Shown piece by piece: positions 1-41,394 of a stretch of DNA of 64,000 bases (its first letter is position 1; each line of letters begins with the position of its first letter). Origin of the DNA: Squalus acanthias (lineage: Eukaryota). The stretch covers positions 121,398,001 through 121,462,000 of the forward strand of contig CM059431.1 in the NCBI GenBank assembly GCA_030390025.1. The letters run 5' to 3'. The translations under genes were made by a program, and so were the position numbers. The notes below the pieces were generated by a model that worked only from the letters and a program-made list of their open reading frames with translations, was not told the origin of the DNA and searched no databases.

Positions 1-1664
1 CCAGAAGCGGCTTGTTATCAGCCATTGACGGACGGCCCTTGCAGTTTCAACATTGTGGGCCTCCCTCCCGCCTTGGTGCTGATGCTGATCATCCTCCTCA
101 TCCTCCTCCTCTTCCTCCTCCTCCTCCTCAGGTGGTGCACCAATCCCTGGTGACATTGGCTGGGTCCTGAGGATTGCAAGGTTATGAAGCATGCAGCACA
201 CAACTATGAAGAGGGAGACTCACTCAGGAGAGTACTGCAGGGCTCCTCCTGAGTGGTCCAGACAGTGGAACCATTGCTTGAGCACGCTGATCGTCTGCTC
301 AATGATGTTCCTGGTGGCGAGATGGCTCTCATTGTACCACAGCTCAGCAGGGGTGTTGGGGTTACAGTGTGGTGTCATCAGCCAGGTGCAGAGTGGGTAA
401 CCCTTGTCCCCGAGGAGCCAACCACTTGGCTGATGCGGTGCCTGGAAAAGGTCTGGCACAGCAGTCTGGCGCAGGATGAAAGCAGCGTGGCTGCTGCCAG
501 GATAGCAGGCATTGTCGGCGAGTATCAGCTGTCTGTGGTCACAGACCAACTGGACATTTAAGGAGTGGAACCCCTTGCGGTTTTGGAAAACCTCTGCATT
601 CTCATGCGGTACCCGCAATGCCACAAACGTGTAGTCAATGGCGCCCTGCACCATGGGGAAGCCCGCTATCCTTGCAAAGTCAAATGCGCGTTCATGCTGT
701 TTGGCCCGGATCATCGAGAAAGAGATGTACTGGCGGCTCCTTTTATACAGGGCATTTGTCACCTCCCGGATACAGCAATGGACCGCAAACTGGGAGATAT
801 TGACAATGTCCCCAGTAGCTGCTTGAAAGGAGCCGGTGGCATAAAAATTCAGAGCCACTGTGACCTTCACTGCCACCGACAGAGACGCCCTGGTCCTCAG
901 TTGAGGCTGCAGATCTAGTTGCAGCAGTTGGCAGAGCTCAGTGACCACCTCCTTGCTGAAGCACAGCCTACGCAAACACTGCTCCTCAGACAAATGAATG
1001 TAGGAGAATTGTTCCTGGAATACCCTGGGATGGTAAGGTCTACTGTGCAGAGGCCCACTGGCCCTCCTTCCTCTGTCCATGATTGCCAATCTCTCTCTGC
1101 GTCTCTGATGCCTCTGATTCTGCAGGCGCAGGACCATGCCCCGAATCAGTGCAGCCCCCACAGTCTCTTGACAATCGAAGTAATGAAGGTCAAATCCAAA
1201 AGAACCTGCAAAGTGCTGCTCAGTAGCCAAAACTCCTTCACACAGTGTTGACCCTCTACAGAAGTCTCTCTCTCTCTCTCTTTCAGAATCTCTATCAGAA
1301 TGAGTGGTGCAAAAATGTCTACCACAAAAAAAGGCAGGAAGAGGGTGCCTTTAAATAGCGCTCCCCAGCCCCTTTCTGACTGCAAACGCTCCCCTTTACC
1401 TGTCGTTGCTTGCAGCAGGTGGAAAGGAGGGGGTCACCACTCAATATCCGGTCCGGGGCACCACGGGGCGTTGCACGCTCGACTGACGTCACGATCTACA
1501 GGCGCAGGAGATCGTGGCGGTTGAGTTTAGCGTCGCCGCAAAAACTCTGGTCAATTTTGCGAGCGTTGCAAACATCGCCGCACCTGGGCGCTAGTTGCTT
1601 TGCGCCCCATTAGCAACCTCTTAGGGCGCTAACTGAAGGCGCAAAGCAACCAAATTTTTCCCCC
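1..1664 (-). mobile_element. PIF/Harbinger DNA transposon (left part outside window)
   Basis: Contains a HARBI1-like transposase frame; terminus AAATTTTTCCCCC followed by TAA (1665-1667); GCGCTA-type subterminal motifs at 1520-1640. Confidence 0.8.
60..1230 (-). pseudogene. Harbinger (HARBI1-like DDE) transposase, decayed
   Basis: ORF 220..1230 contains [51 protein letters not shown]; usual SHDA reads SHAA; C-terminus and acidic tail continue in a shifted frame below 220. Confidence 0.85.
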
Positions 1665-2644
1665 TAAGTCCTTACTTTATTTGTAATAGGCAGAAACTAT
1701 ACTTTGACTTATCAGACCTGGGTTTGTATCTAGCCCAAACTGCTGGGATAATATGGGATGGTGCTACGCTCTAAGTAGAAAAGTTGTACTTGCAAACAAT
1801 ATGGGTCGGAGATAGGGCTAAAAAATTGTAGCTCTGATTCTCCAACCCGCAGTCCCTGTGCCATTTATGGCTTTTGTTTCTTATCCAGCTGCAAGAATTC
1901 TAAGTTAACAGTTTCAGTTGAGTCCTATTGAACAGAATTGCACAGTATAAATGACCTGAAAGGATGGCTGGGGGAAGGAAATGTCAATGGTGAAACAGGT
2001 AAATCAGTTCTGAAGGTGGGGTTAATACCTATATTGGTTATTTAATCTAGGAATGCTTGATGTTAAAACTGAATGCAAAGTTCCATTTCCACAAAGTTGT
2101 CATCCCATCCTTTAATTTGAATAATCACCTCCTAAACATATCAAAAAAGTATTGAAACAATCAATATAAGGTTTCTTTTTTAAAGGTGCAATCATAGTTT
2201 AGCCTGAACAAAGTATTTCTGTATAATTAGAATTGAAAGAATTTAATAAATTCACTTTTTTGGAGATGCAAAGTGCGAGAGGATTGACATTTATTGGAAT
2301 GTTTATGCACTTGTAAGAATGGATCTGACTCTAGTACATGGCATGTAGTACATAAATTTCAGGTAACATGGGTGACTATTATAATTTCAGCTTCATCACT
2401 ACTGCTGATAGTTCTTGCAGTTTTAATTCATCTTTTAGTAATTGCGTTATAACCTCCTCCCTTTGTAATCCAGCCTTATCCATTGGGTCACTGATGAGTT
2501 CACTCGACATTCATCACCTTTTTTCAGATTGTATACCCGCCCATTCCATGCACCATGCTAAATTCCTGACTCGGTTGTCTATCTGCAGTGTGCACTCTGA
2601 CACAGAATGTATGCAAGCTTCATTACAATGTCTAATATTATGTA

Positions 2645-2832
2645 TGTGAGAAGTCGCACAACACCAGGTTATAGTCCAACAGCTTTATTTGAAATCACAA
2701 GACTTCACCTGACGAAGGAGTAGCGCTCCGAAAGCTTGTGATTTCAAATAAAGCTGTTGGACTATAACCTGGTGTTGTGCGACTTCTCACATTTGTCCAC
2801 CCCAGTCCAACACCGGCATCTCCACATCATGG
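2645..2832 (+). mobile_element. Penelope-like (PLE) mini-insertion: inverted partial pLTRs plus ~40-nt tail
   Basis: 57-bp inverted arms (2645-2701 / 2735-2791), hammerhead motif in spacer, 13-bp TSD CTAATATTATGTA (2632-2644, 2833-2845); same family as 21010-21331 and 31135-31190. Confidence 0.75.
2705..2741 (+). ncRNA. Minimal type I hammerhead ribozyme motif
   Basis: UCAC-CUGACGA-A-GGAGU(AGC)GCUCC-GAAA-GC-UU-GUGA: stem I, CUGANGA core, stem II, GAAA, short palindromic stem III (AGCU), UH. Confidence 0.7.
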
Positions 2833-3161
2833 CTAATATTATGTAAATCAACAGATCGTGGGGATTCAAGTAAAGTTCCTAATTTCTCTCCCATCACGGC
2901 AGTGCGTTAAATTCACCAATTTAAAATGGGCTTTAAAGCCAGCATGGCTCTCCTCTGTGCAGAAGAATATCCTTAAATCTGCATTGCTCTGTTTGTTTTG
3001 ATACCATTCAGTTGCAAGCTATTGGGATTGCTTTCAGTGCTCCCCAAATTCATGGAAGAGGATGAAAAAGAACCAAACCAGGATGTCAAGGAGACCAGAT
3101 GGCACCAATTGCCACTAAACATAACTATAAGTTTGAGTACAGTATATGTCTATACTTCTTC

Positions 3162-5135
3162 AAGGTCAGGTTCAGCAGGGAAGCAGTCACCTGCAATGGC
3201 CTCTCTTCCCGCTCCCGCACCATTACCTTTGACGTCCCCCAAGGATCTATCCTTGGCCCCCTCCTATTTCTCATCTACATGCTGCCCCTTGGCAACATCA
3301 TCCGAAAACACAATGTCAGGTTCTACATGTACGCTGACGACACCCAGCTCTACCTCACCACCACCTCTCTCGACACCTCCACGGTCTCTAAATTGTTTGA
3401 CTGCTTGTCCGACATCCAGTACTGGACGAGCAGAAATTTCCTCCAACTAAATATTGGGAAGACCGAAGCCACTGGCCCTGATTTTTCGGTCCGAGGCGGC
3501 TTGGGAGCGGGACAGCTGCCTTCCGGGTTCCAGTCCCACCCCCAATGACATCAGACGCACAGACGCGATTTTGCATCAATTGGCCTTGTTAAGCCCACCC
3601 TGCCGGCCAATTAAAAGGAAGCCAGTGTCAGATGACGTCAGTTGATGACGCATCATCTGCCAGTTTTATTAAAGGGGCCACGCACAATTTATTTTCACAG
3701 CTGATTTCTCAGTGTTTGACAGCATTGAGGTGTTGCAAACACTGACAAACACTGTACAAAGGTGAGCTCTTGCACCCAGACTCTCCAGTGACTCCTCCTT
3801 AGGCTAGAACAGATGGCAGCTGTAGGTGAGATTACAGAAGCGATCTGTCACTGGTGAGAGAGGTTCTCCCAATGAGATGGGACTACACATACACTCCAAA
3901 ACTTGTCACCTACAGAAAAGTCTAAATGCATTAAAAATGATTTTCGCAACATTTTCTTACCTCTGAAACCTCACCAGTGTACCATTGGATCCTTCACACC
4001 ACTTCTGCAGCTGTCATCAATGAACAAACTTTACAATAGACAGCATGCCACACTTACTTGGCGTGGTGTCCGGATGTCGGGAAGCCCGCAGTAGACCTGT
4101 CAAAATTGCAAAAAGCCTCTTAACTGCCTGTTAACAACCTGTTAACAAGCAGTTAAGTGCCTATAATCTTCTTCCCGCCGCTAGGTGTCGGGTCCATGCG
4201 CAAATCGGGGACCCGACACCTGGGAAGATTGTTTGGAGGCGGGTTGATAGTGGGTTTCCGACCCGCTGTCAATCTTTGCGATTTTGCCGGATGTCCCGCC
4301 TCCAAACCCGCCCCCTGAGTGCCGGCAAAATTCCCCCCATTGTGTTCGGTCCCCGCCAAAACCTTCTTTCTCTTGCCACTGACTCCATCCCTCTCCCTGG
4401 CAACTGTCTGAGGCTGAACCAGACTGTATGCAACTTTGGTGCCGTATTTGACCTTGAGCTGAGCTCCCTGCCACATATCCATGTGATCACTAAGACTGCC
4501 TATTTCCACCTCGGTAACATCGCACGTCTCTGCCTCAGCTTATCTGCTGCTGAAACCCTCATCTGTGCCTTTGTTCCCTCTAGACTTAACTATTCCAAAG
4601 CATTCCTGGCCAGCTTCCCATCTTCCACACTCCATAAAATAAAGCTCCTCCAAAACTGTGCCGCTTGTGTCTTGACTCGCACAAAGTCCCATTCACCCAT
4701 CACTCCTGTGCTCGCTGACCTACATTGGCTCTTGGTTAAGCAACACCTCGATTTTAAAATTCTCATCCTTGTTTTCAAATCCCTACATGTCCTCGCCCCT
4801 CCCTATCTCTGTAACCTCCTCCAGCCCTACAAACCTCCGAGATATCTGCGCTCCTCCAATTCTGGCCTCTTGCACATTCCCGAATTTAATCGTTCCACCA
4901 TTGGCGGCTGTGCCTTCAGCTGCCGAGGCCCTAAGCTCTGGAATTCCCTCCCTAAACCTCTCCGCCTCTCTACCTCTCTTTCCTCCATCAAGACGGTCCT
5001 TAAAACCTACCTTTCTCTGCCCTAAACTCTCCTTAAGTGGCTTGGTGTCAAATTTTGTTTGATAACGCTCCTGTGAAGCACCTTGGGATGTTTTACTACA
5101 TTATAGGCACTATATAAATGCAAGTTGTTGTTGTT
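3162..5135 (+). mobile_element. L2-clade LINE 3' fragment, interrupted by MITE 3474-4338
   Basis: RT motifs VPQGSILGPLLF and YADD; frame resumes after the insert (LHWL, LWNSLP); tail ...TATATAAATGCAAG(TTG)n. Confidence 0.9.
3474..4338. mobile_element. Non-autonomous Harbinger-type element (~865 bp)
   Basis: Imperfect TIR GGCCCTGATTTT/AAAATTCCCCCC; 3-bp flanks ACT/ATT; splits the L2 sequence GAAGCCATTGT; inverted copy at 6161-7033. Confidence 0.85.
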
Positions 5136-20990: not shown

Positions 20991-21095
20991 ACTGTCAAGT
21001 TTAATCATGATGCGGAGATGCCGGCGTTGGACTGGGGTGGACAAAAATGAGAAGTCGCACAACACCAGGTTATAGTTCAACAGATTTATTTAAAA

Positions 21096-21133
21096 TTACA
21101 AGCTTTCGGAGCTGTCGCCCCTTCGTCAGGCAA
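21096..21133 (-). ncRNA. Minimal hammerhead ribozyme motif (minus arm)
   Basis: Exact reverse complement of 21246-21283. Confidence 0.65.
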
Positions 21134-21245
21134 AGTTACTGTGAGAGAATCTATCAGAATTCACAGAATATAAAAACACAGAGAAAATGCATTTTCTCTG
21201 TGTTTTTATATTCTGTGAATTCTGATAGATTCTCTCACAGTAACT

Positions 21246-21283
21246 TTGCCTGACGAAGGGGCGACAGCTCCGAAAGCTTGTAA
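21246..21283 (+). ncRNA. Minimal hammerhead ribozyme motif (plus arm)
   Basis: UUGC-CUGACGA-A-GGGGC(GACA)GCUCC-GAAA-GC-UU-GUAA. Confidence 0.7.
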
Positions 21284-21984
21284 TTTTAAATAAATCTGTT
21301 GGACTATAACCTGGTGTTGTGCGACTTCTCAAGTTTAATCATGCTTGGTACTGTACCTCAGTCATGTTCCTCTATGGTTGGAAGTTGGTCCCTATGACAT
21401 CAGGTAAAATGTTCATTATGTTTTTCCTAAAATATTGCCTGTTGTTTGAAAATATGCATCTGTGAATTATAGTGAACTGTTTAGTAGAATGCACAGTATC
21501 TCATTAAATACTTGATTAATGTTCTTGCATTTGGCCTGCATCTTCTAATAATACAGCTGGTAAGTGGTGCTCTAAATGGTCTTTTGGTAAATTAGCTATG
21601 CATAGTTGACATTTTAACCCAGGGCGGGATTGGTGCGTGTGGGGGTCGGAGTAAGTGATAGGCTCCCATGCCGAGGCCCAGGGATATTTTAGCCCCCCGG
21701 GCCTGATTTCCATATTCAGAATTGTACTCTTTCCCGAACGCTGCAAGAATCACTGCATGGGTGGTGGGCAGCAACAGGAATTCAGGTGGCAGGAGGTCGC
21801 TGCCGGTCCCCAACAGATATGTCTCGGGGAGGGACTCTCAATTGGGGGAGTGGGGGAAGCCCAGGGCAAGGGAGGGTTCGGAGGAGCACAACTGCTTCTC
21901 CTGGCCAATAAGGAAATGGAACTTTTTAAAATAAAATTTACCTTTCTGGGCCTGGCAGGGAAGCTACCACTGCTTCACCGCTCA

Positions 21985-29537: not shown

Positions 29538-31260
29538 TGTAAGGGTTGCGTGTCTCAGACGGTGCTGGTGCGAGGTTAGGCCTTTGTTGCCTAATACTAT
29601 TGCTTGCTCTGGTCTCCGGCCAGCCTTTTTGCAATAAGCACCTGTGAGTGGTTCGACCCACTCGCCCTTACGGTTCTAACACTGGACTTAGGTGCAGGGA
29701 GCAGTAATGCAGAGAAAAACTCAAATAGACCCGGTTGAATAGTACGAAATGGAAATCTTTATTGCATGGCGTCTACAATCATGAAATACATGTCATAGGC
29801 GCAAATCAACAATAGTACAAGTATACATACATTCATAAAGCTTGGTCTGTGGAAATGGAGAACACACGGCACATCGTAGAAAGGGGAACACATTATATCT
29901 TAACCTTATTAAACCACCCTCCCTTAATAATACCTACACTACGTCTAGATTTGTAGGATCGTAAAACATGCTCACCACTCGTGTTACTTCGGAGATTTTT
30001 AAAGTGAGGCACTCGGCTCGTTTCGCTGCAGCGCCTGACTGTCACGTGTTTGGAAGGGTCTCTGTACCCCACTTGTTTATTTTTACTGCTGCGACAAGCA
30101 GGCCAGACTCCCTGTTGTCATGAAGAACTCGACGGACCTCGGACACAGTTCAAAGAAGAGTCTTCCTGTGCTCGACACCGGTTGTCGGGAGACTTCAATG
30201 AAAAGTTCTTTATTTATATTTTCGGGCGCGGTCGGGGTTTACTGACCGTGGCGGCATGTGGATTCTTCTCCTCTTCTTCTCGTCTCGTCTCGTCTCTTCG
30301 GGCCTCCGGGTCCAGACACCGTTTACCGACACTCGGGATGGTGCACCCTGTTACTTGCCCTTGTCGGGGCGGCTCGTTCCGATTGAGCTCCACCCAACAC
30401 TTGAATAACCGACCAGTACGGCTAAGAGTCAATTGTCAACAGAGTCCAGAGAGAAAATCAAAAGCTCACCAGTCAAGCGAGTCCATGAAGCGGCAAGCGA
30501 ATAAGAGTTCAGCAGTCAGCAGCGAGATAAGAGAATAAGAGAGCGATGGACATTTGTTCACTATAGTTATAGTGCTGTGTTCCCTTATCTCCCGCTCAAA
30601 TCTTAATGTTTGTCCTTTGTGTAATATTGGCGCTCAAAACTCCCAGCATGGGGCGATTCTTCTCTTTAACGGGTTTCGGTAGCACCTGAAACTGGCCAAC
30701 TATCCGTTAATGTTTTCCCCATTGTTGACTCAGCCAGGATGTGTATGAATGTGTCTGGATGGGCCTTCGATTGCCCAATACAATGATCCTTACTTGTGCA
30801 TGGAAAACGATTCCAGCACTTATATCTTTGCTATTGTTTCAAATGCAAACGGATTGCATCCTGTCTTTATCAGTGTTTACCGAGTGTGATCCAATCTTAT
30901 ACTAAATGTATATTCAACACCATCTTGTCTGCCCACTGTGTTTCTGGAAGCTTCTGCCACGATGTTCGGCGGCCATTTTACAGGCTTTTGTGTCCTTTAT
31001 TATCAGGACAGCATTTCGTTTAATAAAGCTGATTACACGAATCTGCTTCTCTTGTGTTATTTTGAATCGCGATAATTGTGAAACTTTACACTACTCAAGC
31101 AATCCCAAAAGGTAAGCATAGCGCTGTCAATAATAAAGCTTGTGATTTCAAATAAAACTGTTGGACTATAACCTGGTGTTGTGCGACTTCTCAATAATTC
31201 TAAGCTCACAGCTCTCCAAAATATTGCTTTAATACCTCAACTGGAAAATGTACCCTCACA
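29538..31260 (-). mobile_element. Probable solo LTR (~1.7 kb)
   Basis: TGTAAGGGT...ACCCTCACA termini; minus-strand AATAAA near 29760; U5-like motif shared with LTR 46405-47968; no clean TSD. Confidence 0.55.
31135..31190 (+). mobile_element. 56-bp PLE pLTR fragment
   Basis: Matches 2731-2787; flanked by TCAATAAT direct repeat (31127-31134, 31191-31198). Confidence 0.75.
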
Positions 31261-40700: not shown

Positions 40701-41394
40701 TTTTCTTTTTTTTTCTTAGCTTTCTTTTATTTTGTCCTTCGCATTTACTATAAAAGTATTTCTCAAGCCTGATTCTGATGAAGGGTCATATCAGAAACTT
40801 TAACTGCTAGTGCATCTCCTGTGGTATTGTTCATGGTTATTCAAAGGTATGTTTATCTGTGGAGTAGCTTGGTGGAGTTGAGGGACAAGTGGATATGGTG
40901 GCTGAAAGGAATTGGAAGTAAGTTTGTGAAAGTTGCACTCAGAGAAGGTGAAGTTGGAGGGCTCAGAATTTCACCCTGGCCCAAGGTGCATCTCCAGTAT
41001 AGCTGATGGAGGGTCCTAGAAAATGGGGCAGAACCTGGTTTGGCCTGGATACTGCCCCTTGGAGAAGAGGCCAAGAAATTCTGGTGAGGGAGGAGCAGAT
41101 ATTCCACAAAGTTCCATTTCATCATTGGAATGTGTCTGGGGGGAGTTCCTCTAGGAACTCCCCCCAGACACATTACATTGGGAAATTCTGCTTAGTATGC
41201 CAACTGATATGCCCAACAGAACTCCCACTTACTATAAATAAGTTTAAGTTCCATTACAGACCTTCCCAAAATTCCTCAGGGCAAAGGTAATCTATCTGGG
41301 AGGAGATCTATTTCCTTAAAGAGACAGCTGTAAATTAGTTCAATAGTATTTATGTAGGCGTCACTGCTCCATTGGAGCTCCATGGTGCTGCTCC

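What the first reader, a model, noticed from the sequence alone, without database searches (positions are those of the whole stretch)
2645..2832. 188-bp mobile unit that is essentially a hammerhead motif in the loop of an inverted repeat
Seen: 13-bp TSD, 57-bp inverted arms, a 33-nt spacer holding CUGACGA/stem II/GAAA, and a 40-nt tail. Known: Penelope-like elements carry minimal type I hammerheads in pLTRs and often insert with inverted pLTR pieces. Inference: a non-coding ribozyme-bearing element mobilised in trans, either an extreme PLE truncation or a retrozyme-like family.
Basis: partly seen in the sequence, partly recalled or inferred. Interest (0 to 1): 0.7.

Follow-up and report, generated by a model that had tools for sequence, protein, structure and literature searches.

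The report
Shark Penelope hairpin stub, locked hammerhead
This 188-base hairpin is one young insertion of the front end of a very abundant Penelope-type jumping gene, a known shape; its ribozyme motif is predicted to be locked shut by the hairpin, and it was likely built in one insertion event from two short RNA copies joined head to head, not spread as a ribozyme family of its own.

Summary
The anatomy is real. There is a 13-bp target-site duplication (empty site in two related species), perfect 57-bp arms, a 33-nt spacer and a 41-nt tail. Bases 2702-2832 match the pLTR of a Neptune-like Penelope element: a copy with an intact 891-aa ORF is 130/134 identical, and the genome holds at least 14,423 exact arm-tail joints. 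The piece runs from a TATA/initiator-marked likely transcription start to the ORF's ATG; the left arm is an inverted partial copy. Hairpin plus tail is this family's normal product (77 of 92 sampled copies, 65 different end pairs, 127-576 bp). The window's exact junction occurs 8 times, dispersed, in both orientations and in different subfamilies, so this is not a distinct retrozyme family. The minimal hammerhead covaries between families, but its cut site lies in the right arm and is predicted sequestered; Rfam gives no hammerhead hit. An extra G at the start (3,125 copies) suggests cap copying; this scan has reported that reading before on other DNA. One side result returned nothing in my look-up of the scan's notes: two private junctions are shared only by neighbouring copies (5 of 5 within 2.7 Mb; 2 of 2 within 104 kb).

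The parts
2632..2644 (+). Left copy of the 13-bp AT-rich target-site duplication
   Evidence: empty orthologous site in runs X7 and X8
2645..2701 (-). Inverted, tail-less partial pLTR copy (element positions +34 to +90); left arm of the hairpin
   Evidence: 57/57 complementary to 2735-2791; inverted arms end at +85 to +97 in 67 of 77 copies
2701..2701 (+). Junction G: last base of the left arm, and also the extra G found before +1 in thousands of copies (likely a copy of the RNA cap; ambiguous in this copy)
   Evidence: the template base at -1 is C; G before +1 in 3,125 places versus 1,591 for A plus T
2702..2832 (+). Forward pLTR piece, +1 (likely transcription start) to +131, of a Neptune-like Penelope element
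   Evidence: 130/134 identical to the pLTR in front of the intact ORF in L031; TATA box at -30 and initiator TCACT in the parent
2705..2741 (+). Minimal type I hammerhead motif: stem I 2705-2708 with 2738-2741, CUGACGA 2709-2715, bulged A 2716, stem II 2717-2721 with 2725-2729, GAAA 2730-2733, palindromic AGCU 2733-2736 in place of stem III, predicted cut after U2737
   Evidence: read from the sequence; compensatory changes in 8 of 11 pairs between two families of this genome; no Rfam hammerhead hit
2735..2791 (+). Right arm; carries the predicted cleavage site and the stem I 3' strand, paired with the left arm
   Evidence: stem I pairing probability about 1e-8 in the full unit and 0.001 or less from the moment it is transcribed
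2792..2832 (+). 41-nt Penelope 'tail', present on one side only; ends at the ORF start codon (ATG 2829-2831)
   Evidence: forward ends at +125 to +139 in 84 of 92 copies
2833..2845 (+). Right copy of the TSD; its first 3 nt (CTA) also match the element's ORF

Best explanation
This is a young, non-coding hairpin-plus-tail insertion of an abundant Neptune-like Penelope retroelement, likely made in one event when both nicked ends of the target primed short reverse transcripts of the element's RNA front end, which were then likely joined head to head; its hammerhead is predicted to be locked in the hairpin. Shown: the identity of the parent, the TSD and empty site, the two fixed 3' ends (about +90 for the inverted arm, about +130 for the tail), the pile-up of 5' ends at +1, and the excess of an extra G there. 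Inferred steps: (1) RNA polymerase II starts at +1 from the pLTR's TATA and initiator. (2) The element's GIY-YIG endonuclease nicks both strands 13 nt apart. (3) One end primes inside the RNA near the ATG (+130), runs to the cap and adds a C, read as G2701. (4) The other end primes near +90 and stops or is trimmed at +34. (5) The two cDNAs are joined with a 1-nt overlap and the gaps are filled, giving the TSD. The hammerhead is a passenger from the parent's 5' UTR. The stub has no TATA box and is not expected to be a source element.
For: Parent: L031 has inverted arm, pLTR, 891-aa ORF, pLTR. It has an RVT_1 hit at E 1.1e-8, a CX5CxxC linker, and YLI-C-C-YIG with two downstream H; its nearest named homologues are from sharks. 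Junction-independent sample of 92 copies: 77 with an inverted arm, 73 with a TSD of 7 bp or more, 57 with 11-14 bp, TSDs 72% AT. The longer arm ends at +1/+2 in 30 of 77 and within -5..+5 in 49 of 77. The tail arm is the longer in 37 and the inverted arm in 38, as two equivalent primers predict. Extra G: 3,125 versus 1,591 for A plus T, of which 28 of the first 100 listed are A and many T are a subfamily variant. Three junctions among the 100 rows (two of them listed twice, once per strand) have both arms at +1, each with its own extra G. Literature: an inverted 5'-truncated pLTR with a 30-40-bp tail is typical (PMC8557442, PMC3846280, passages). Purified Anolis PLE protein cuts and extends both strands and starts RT at two internal sites that bound the tail (PMC11167929, main text read).
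Against: No RNA evidence for the start site or the cap. In this copy and many others the extra G can also be read as templated by the other arm. In 17 of 77 copies the longer arm runs upstream of -5, so other templates are also used. Arm ends come from local alignments and are uncertain by a few bases. Pfam gives no GIY-YIG hit for the parent protein itself, only for a 32%-identical relative. Neptune is assigned by motif, not by a tree. The in vitro study is on a Poseidon element and does not show head-to-head joining.
Confidence: 0.72

Rival explanations
1. Same parent and same stub, but the inverted arm arose by fold-back: one cDNA (or an antisense template) self-primed and copied itself, as proposed for Penelope junction palindromes.
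For: Arkhipova et al. read head-to-head palindromes as self-priming on an antisense template (PMC3846280, passage). Junctions are rich in microhomology: one GAAG junction occurs 738 times. The window's arm ends inside the AAGCTT palindrome, and the arms are identical.
Against: Fold-back of a tail-primed cDNA should leave the tail arm longer, but the split is 37 to 38. Some junctions carry the extra G on both arms. The inverted arm has its own fixed outer end near +90 (67 of 77).
Confidence: 0.17
2. The 188-bp unit is a non-autonomous, retrozyme-like or MITE-like family that is transcribed and mobilised in trans as a unit.
For: The exact junction recurs 8 times, 15 with one mismatch. Some junction types are very common (738 copies). 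pLTRs can act in cis for mobilisation in trans (PMC3846280, passages). Animal retrozymes are proposed to derive from pLTRs (bioRxiv 10.64898/2026.07.22.740005, abstract and passages).
Against: 8 junctions against at least 14,423 joints. Three have the tail on the window's side and five on the other; the sisters differ in subfamily SNPs. Only 2 of 67 sampled units are 186-190 bp. There is no tandem array and no TATA box, and the ribozyme is predicted sequestered.
Confidence: 0.06
3. Hammerhead self-cleavage set the end of the left arm: the second cDNA ran off an RNA cut after +36, and AA was added without template.
For: The left arm ends at +34, three bases from the predicted cut, and the junction can be read as arm to +37, AA, extra G.
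Against: Only 3 of 169 sampled 5' ends fall at +34 to +37, against 35 at +1/+2. Hammerhead mutants did not change insertion in vitro, and no reads ended at the cut site (PMC11167929).
Confidence: 0.05

Closest known systems
Insertion units of endonuclease-bearing Penelope-like elements with inverted 5'-truncated pLTR, one-sided 30-40-bp tail and TSD (Arkhipova et al. 2013, PMC3846280; Craig et al. 2021, PMC8557442)
   Same: Head-to-head inverted pLTR piece, tail on one side, TSD of about 9-13 bp, TATA box and TCACT initiator in the pLTR, pLTR running into the ORF start.
   Different: Reduced to the minimum, with no ORF body at all. The forward piece begins exactly at the likely start site. The cap-like extra G and the two-primer reading were not in the passages I read.
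Poseidon element of Anolis carolinensis, PAc (Frangieh et al. 2024, PMC11167929)
   Same: Two internal RT start sites bounding the tail, AT-rich target, both strands cut, hammerhead in the pLTR that is dispensable for insertion in vitro.
   Different: This parent has the CX2-5CxxC linker that Poseidon lacks. Its ATG is about 90 nt downstream of the hammerhead rather than inside it, and its RT start sites lie at or before the ATG rather than 111-118 nt into the ORF.
Minimal type I hammerheads of metazoan PLEs (Cervera and De la Pena 2014, PMC4209133)
   Same: Short helix I, extra base between positions 9 and 10.1, G10.1-C11.1 pair, palindromic 15.2-16.2, no helix III, predicted to need a dimer.
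   Different: Here the cut site and half of helix I are paired into a 57-bp hairpin, so even the dimer route is predicted blocked in a transcript of the whole unit.
Non-LTR retrozymes (Li, Clavereau and Pollet, bioRxiv 10.64898/2026.07.22.740005)
   Same: Short, non-coding, pLTR-related, with a type I hammerhead motif.
   Different: Retrozymes are tandem repeats with a hammerhead in each of at least two units. This is a single inverted unit with a PLE tail and variable junctions.

Membership tests
EN+ Penelope-like element insertion | [quoted passage not shown] | tested here: met
   130/134 to the L031 pLTR; 891-aa ORF with RVT_1; GIY-YIG and CCHH-like residues by motif; Pfam GIY-YIG only in a 32% relative
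EN+ Penelope-like element insertion | Inverted 5'-truncated pLTR next to a direct one, with a 30-40-bp tail on one side | tested here: met
   window anatomy; 77 of 92 copies
EN+ Penelope-like element insertion | Short variable TSD at an AT-rich site | tested here: met
   13 bp with empty site; 57 of 92 copies have 11-14 bp, 72% AT
Neptune clade | CX2-5CxxC linker before the endonuclease | tested here: met
   CHGNLCKTC at residue 753 of P0002; feature as given in PMC8557442 (also in Naiad, whose EN is N-terminal)
Neptune clade | RT groups with Neptune in a phylogeny | not tested
   no named reference PLE proteins were at hand
Minimal type I hammerhead of PLEs | Core boxes CUGANGA and GAAA, NUH, helices I and II, palindromic 15.2-16.2 | tested here: met
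   all 88 cells paired, 8 of 11 pairs with changes on both sides across two families; this is in effect one contrast between two families
Minimal type I hammerhead of PLEs | Match to an Rfam hammerhead model | tested here: not met
   no hammerhead family at E up to 10 in 1,501 or 68 bases; these models include helix III (recalled), which this motif lacks
Minimal type I hammerhead of PLEs | Self-cleavage, as a dimer or with protein | not testable with these tools
   folding predicts sequestration in this unit
Non-LTR retrozyme | Tandem array with a complete hammerhead in at least two consecutive units | tested here: not met
   single unit; no direct repeat other than the TSD and one weak 22-nt pair
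Distinct non-autonomous family | Many copies with the same ends, junction and shared private variants | tested here: not met
   8 exact junctions, two orientations, mixed subfamilies; 65 end pairs in 77 copies

The most novel reading that the evidence does not exclude
These stubs record two steps of Penelope integration that I did not find in print. First, both target ends copy a capped RNA back to its 5' end and are joined head to head. Second, the joint can be patched from a neighbouring hairpin copy by homologous repair, so a private junction spreads, in either orientation, to independent insertions of other subfamilies within a few megabases (5 of 5 copies within 2.7 Mb; 2 of 2 within 104 kb). 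Junctions would then be heritable marks of chromosomal proximity in the germ line.
Probability: 0.4. Interest if true: 0.6.

Novelty: new member of a known kind. Interest (0 to 1): 0.3.

Why it matters
The insertion itself is one of more than fourteen thousand dead stubs and matters little. As a population the stubs bear on an open question, how Penelope elements build their inverted ends and tails. They mark two RT start sites and a likely capped 5' end at base resolution, which the existing in vitro system (PMC11167929) could test directly. The local sharing of private junctions, if general, would show that repair between nearby hairpin repeats reshapes these elements, and it would warn against using junctions to define subfamilies.

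Tried and rejected
Rfam scans gave only generic hairpin (microRNA-type) matches below the gathering score and no hammerhead. Pfam on the endonuclease piece gave nothing. PDB sequence search gave nothing significant. A BLAST-type search with the 63-nt tail region returned no candidates, which shows nothing because common words are skipped; a pattern search replaced it. A first greedy junction caller was confounded by subfamily variants at +21 to +24 and was discarded in favour of local alignment. A two-copy fold did not return the double hammerhead as lowest energy, and my constrained version was not evaluated, so dimer folding is untested. A 43-nt 'linker' shared by L091 and L092 was partly a subfamily insertion with 50 dispersed copies; only the true joint is private. 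Local clustering was not seen for the window's junction (one copy on C7; two on C19 lie 1.6 Mb apart), for the +1/+55 junction (17, dispersed), for the +2/+13 junction (738) or for the L101 junction (single). No RNA holder was listed for the locus. Run X6 was inconclusive for the empty site. Literature searches for an extra G from the cap gave no usable paper, so the LINE-1 precedent is recalled. Searches showed no title on junction transfer between neighbouring Penelope copies (listings only; the library lacks most subscription journals, and I opened no supplements).

Full report
Observation. The sequence shows CTAATATTATGTA at 2632-2644 and 2833-2845, arms at 2645-2701 and 2735-2791 that are 57/57 complementary, a 33-nt spacer and a 41-nt tail. 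Contigs of two related organisms (runs X7 and X8, one study, flanks about 96% identical) run from window 2631 straight to 2833. This fixes a 188-bp insert and a 13-bp duplication. A second sample of the window's organism carries both junctions unchanged. The insertion is therefore real and younger than the split from those organisms. It sits in repeat-rich DNA, with a DDE_Tnp_4 transposase fragment at 220-1350 and an RT fragment at 3066-3548.

Parent element. Searching the own genome with 2702-2832 returned near-identical copies whose upstream sides differ; several continue into a longer element. Following that element gave L031: inverted arm, pLTR, an uninterrupted 891-aa ORF, a 329-nt 3' region and a second pLTR. 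The ORF has RVT_1 (E 1.1e-8), a CHGNLCKTC linker and YLIRCRKGCPGAWYIG with two downstream histidines. Pfam does not call the GIY-YIG domain in it, but does in a 32%-identical relative. The linker points to Neptune by the features in PMC8557442 (passages); I made no tree. The closest named homologues are shark proteins. Window 2702-2835 is 130/134 identical to the pLTR before this ORF, and the tail ends at the ORF's ATG (2829-2831). Numbering 2702 as +1, the left arm is +34 to +90 inverted.

Is the unit a family? An exact 23-base arm-tail joint occurs 14,423 times, with a filter that drops about a quarter of places. I took roughly the first 92 places, all on C1 0.8-19 Mb, chosen without regard to the arm junction. 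This gave 93 matches in 90 loci, of which one duplicate was dropped. The sample is biased to young, tail-bearing copies. Of the 92, 77 have an inverted arm, with 65 different pairs of inner ends; 73 have a TSD of 7 bp or more and 57 of 11-14 bp. The 67 units with both an arm and a TSD span 127-576 bp (median 206), and 2 are 186-190 bp. The window's junction occurs 8 times exactly, on 7 contigs, and 15 times with one mismatch, 4 of which are a different joint. Three of the 8 have the tail on the window's side and five on the other, and they carry different subfamily variants. Hairpin plus tail is thus the ordinary product of this element, as described for PLEs in general (PMC3846280, PMC8557442, PMC2377424; passages seen). 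The 188-bp form is one outcome among many.

Where the ends fall. Outer ends are fixed: inverted arms end at +85 to +97 (67 of 77) and tail arms at +125 to +139 (84 of 92). This matches the two internal RT start sites that bound the tail in the purified Anolis element, which cuts and extends both strands (PMC11167929, main text read). Inner ends pile up at +1: the longer arm ends at +1/+2 in 30 of 77 and within -5 to +5 in 49 of 77, while 17 run further upstream. In the parent, +1 lies in TCACT with TATATA at -30, the arrangement noted for rotifer pLTRs (PMC3846280); Drosophila Penelope instead has a TATA-less internal promoter (PMC2377424). The template base at -1 is C, yet G stands there in 3,125 places against 1,591 for A plus T. 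Of the first 100 rows, 28 are A, and many T are a subfamily variant. In the first 100 rows, read on the cDNA strand, 67 continue with the template base or another G, 23 have C, 5 T and 5 A (4 of these a variant). Many of the C can also be read from the other arm, which weakens the count. However, one search lists junctions where both arms reach +1, each with its own extra base, and others where +1 plus G joins unrelated flank. I read this as reverse transcription of the cap; the LINE-1 precedent is recalled, not retrieved. Either arm can be the longer (37 to 38), which favours two equivalent primers over fold-back of one cDNA. I noted the start-site and cap idea; later look-ups showed that other agents of this scan reached it on other stubs, one in this genome, which is not independent evidence.

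The hammerhead. The motif has helix I (UCAC/GUGA), CUGACGA, a bulged A, helix II, GAAA, a palindromic AGCU and a predicted cut after U2737, as in the minimal PLE hammerheads of PMC4209133 (results and discussion read). A second family in the same genome keeps the fold with different letters: 8 of 11 pairs change on both sides and all 88 cells pair, in 8 hand-picked sequences that amount to one contrast between two families. Rfam lists no hammerhead. In a transcript of the whole unit the left arm captures the cut site: helix I probability is about 1e-8, and 0.001 or less from the moment it is made. Without the left arm it is 0.72-0.87 in short transcripts and 0.04 in the 131-nt one. Only 3 of 169 inner ends lie at +34 to +37, so cleavage does not set the breakpoints in general. 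The motif is best read as an inherited passenger.

Side result: junctions shared by neighbours. A joint with an untemplated linker (+1 to +21) occurs 5 times in 3.7 Gb, all on C1 12.2-14.9 Mb, with different flanks and TSDs and with the tail on either side. The five differ in tail and arm variants, even 20 nt from the joint, so whole units were not copied; only the joint region is shared. A second private joint occurs twice, 104 kb apart and flipped. Both were noticed after the fact in the C1 sample. Against generality: other tested junctions were dispersed or single, and in 100 further rows over C1 1-153 Mb I saw by eye no new cluster of this kind. The likely cause is homologous repair using a nearby hairpin as template, at insertion or after a break at the hairpin centre; I cannot tell which. 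A look-up in the scan's notes found nothing on it, and paper listings showed no such title. It does not apply to the window's copy, which has no sister on C7.

Verdict. The truncated-PLE reading is right and the retrozyme-family reading is not. This is a new member of a known kind, with modest added value from what its sister copies say about mechanism. Interest 0.3.

Noticed in passing
L171-L175 (G000:C1:12.21-14.93 Mb): Five independent insertions share one linker-bearing arm junction found nowhere else in the genome, in both orientations and on different subfamily backgrounds.
   Followed up: partly
L176 and L177 (G000:C1:2,938,290 and 3,041,878): A second private junction, 2 of 2 copies 104 kb apart, flipped relative to the tail, with different TSDs.
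   Followed up: partly
window 21006-21331: Older, larger hairpin-plus-tail copy of a diverged subfamily (88% identical), with a variant helix I and II in its hammerhead.
   Followed up: partly
window 31135-31193: Short single-arm, tail-less fragment of the same element.
   Followed up: no
L082:972-1010, L106, L119, L136, L193: A second repeat family with a different minimal hammerhead (helix I AGUU/AACU, palindrome ACGU); a weak similar motif lies at window 40770-40806.
   Followed up: partly
L030:1320-1630; G000:C1:21,326,648 and C1:153,180,549: Head-to-tail units in which about 70 nt of the ORF start is joined to +1 through an extra G, hinting at a third RT start site inside the ORF.
   Followed up: no
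L031 (G000:C28:18,883,563-18,886,238): A copy of the element with an uninterrupted 891-aa ORF between two pLTRs; the family looks recent, with 150 scored endonuclease matches at 93-100% identity.
   Followed up: yes
P0006, P0007, P0008, P0012, P0014, P0015: Pieces of this element's endonuclease region appear inside predicted shark host proteins (septin 5a, XRCC5, PPP1R12A-like, FSTL5, USP8), either exonised or annotation noise.
   Followed up: no
window 220-1350 (-) and 3066-3548 (+): Neighbouring DDE_Tnp_4 transposase fragment and LINE-type RT fragment.
   Followed up: partly
L097 and L098 (G000:C1:3.97 and 3.98 Mb): The same insertion with identical flanks 17 kb apart, a local duplication; counted once.
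   Followed up: no
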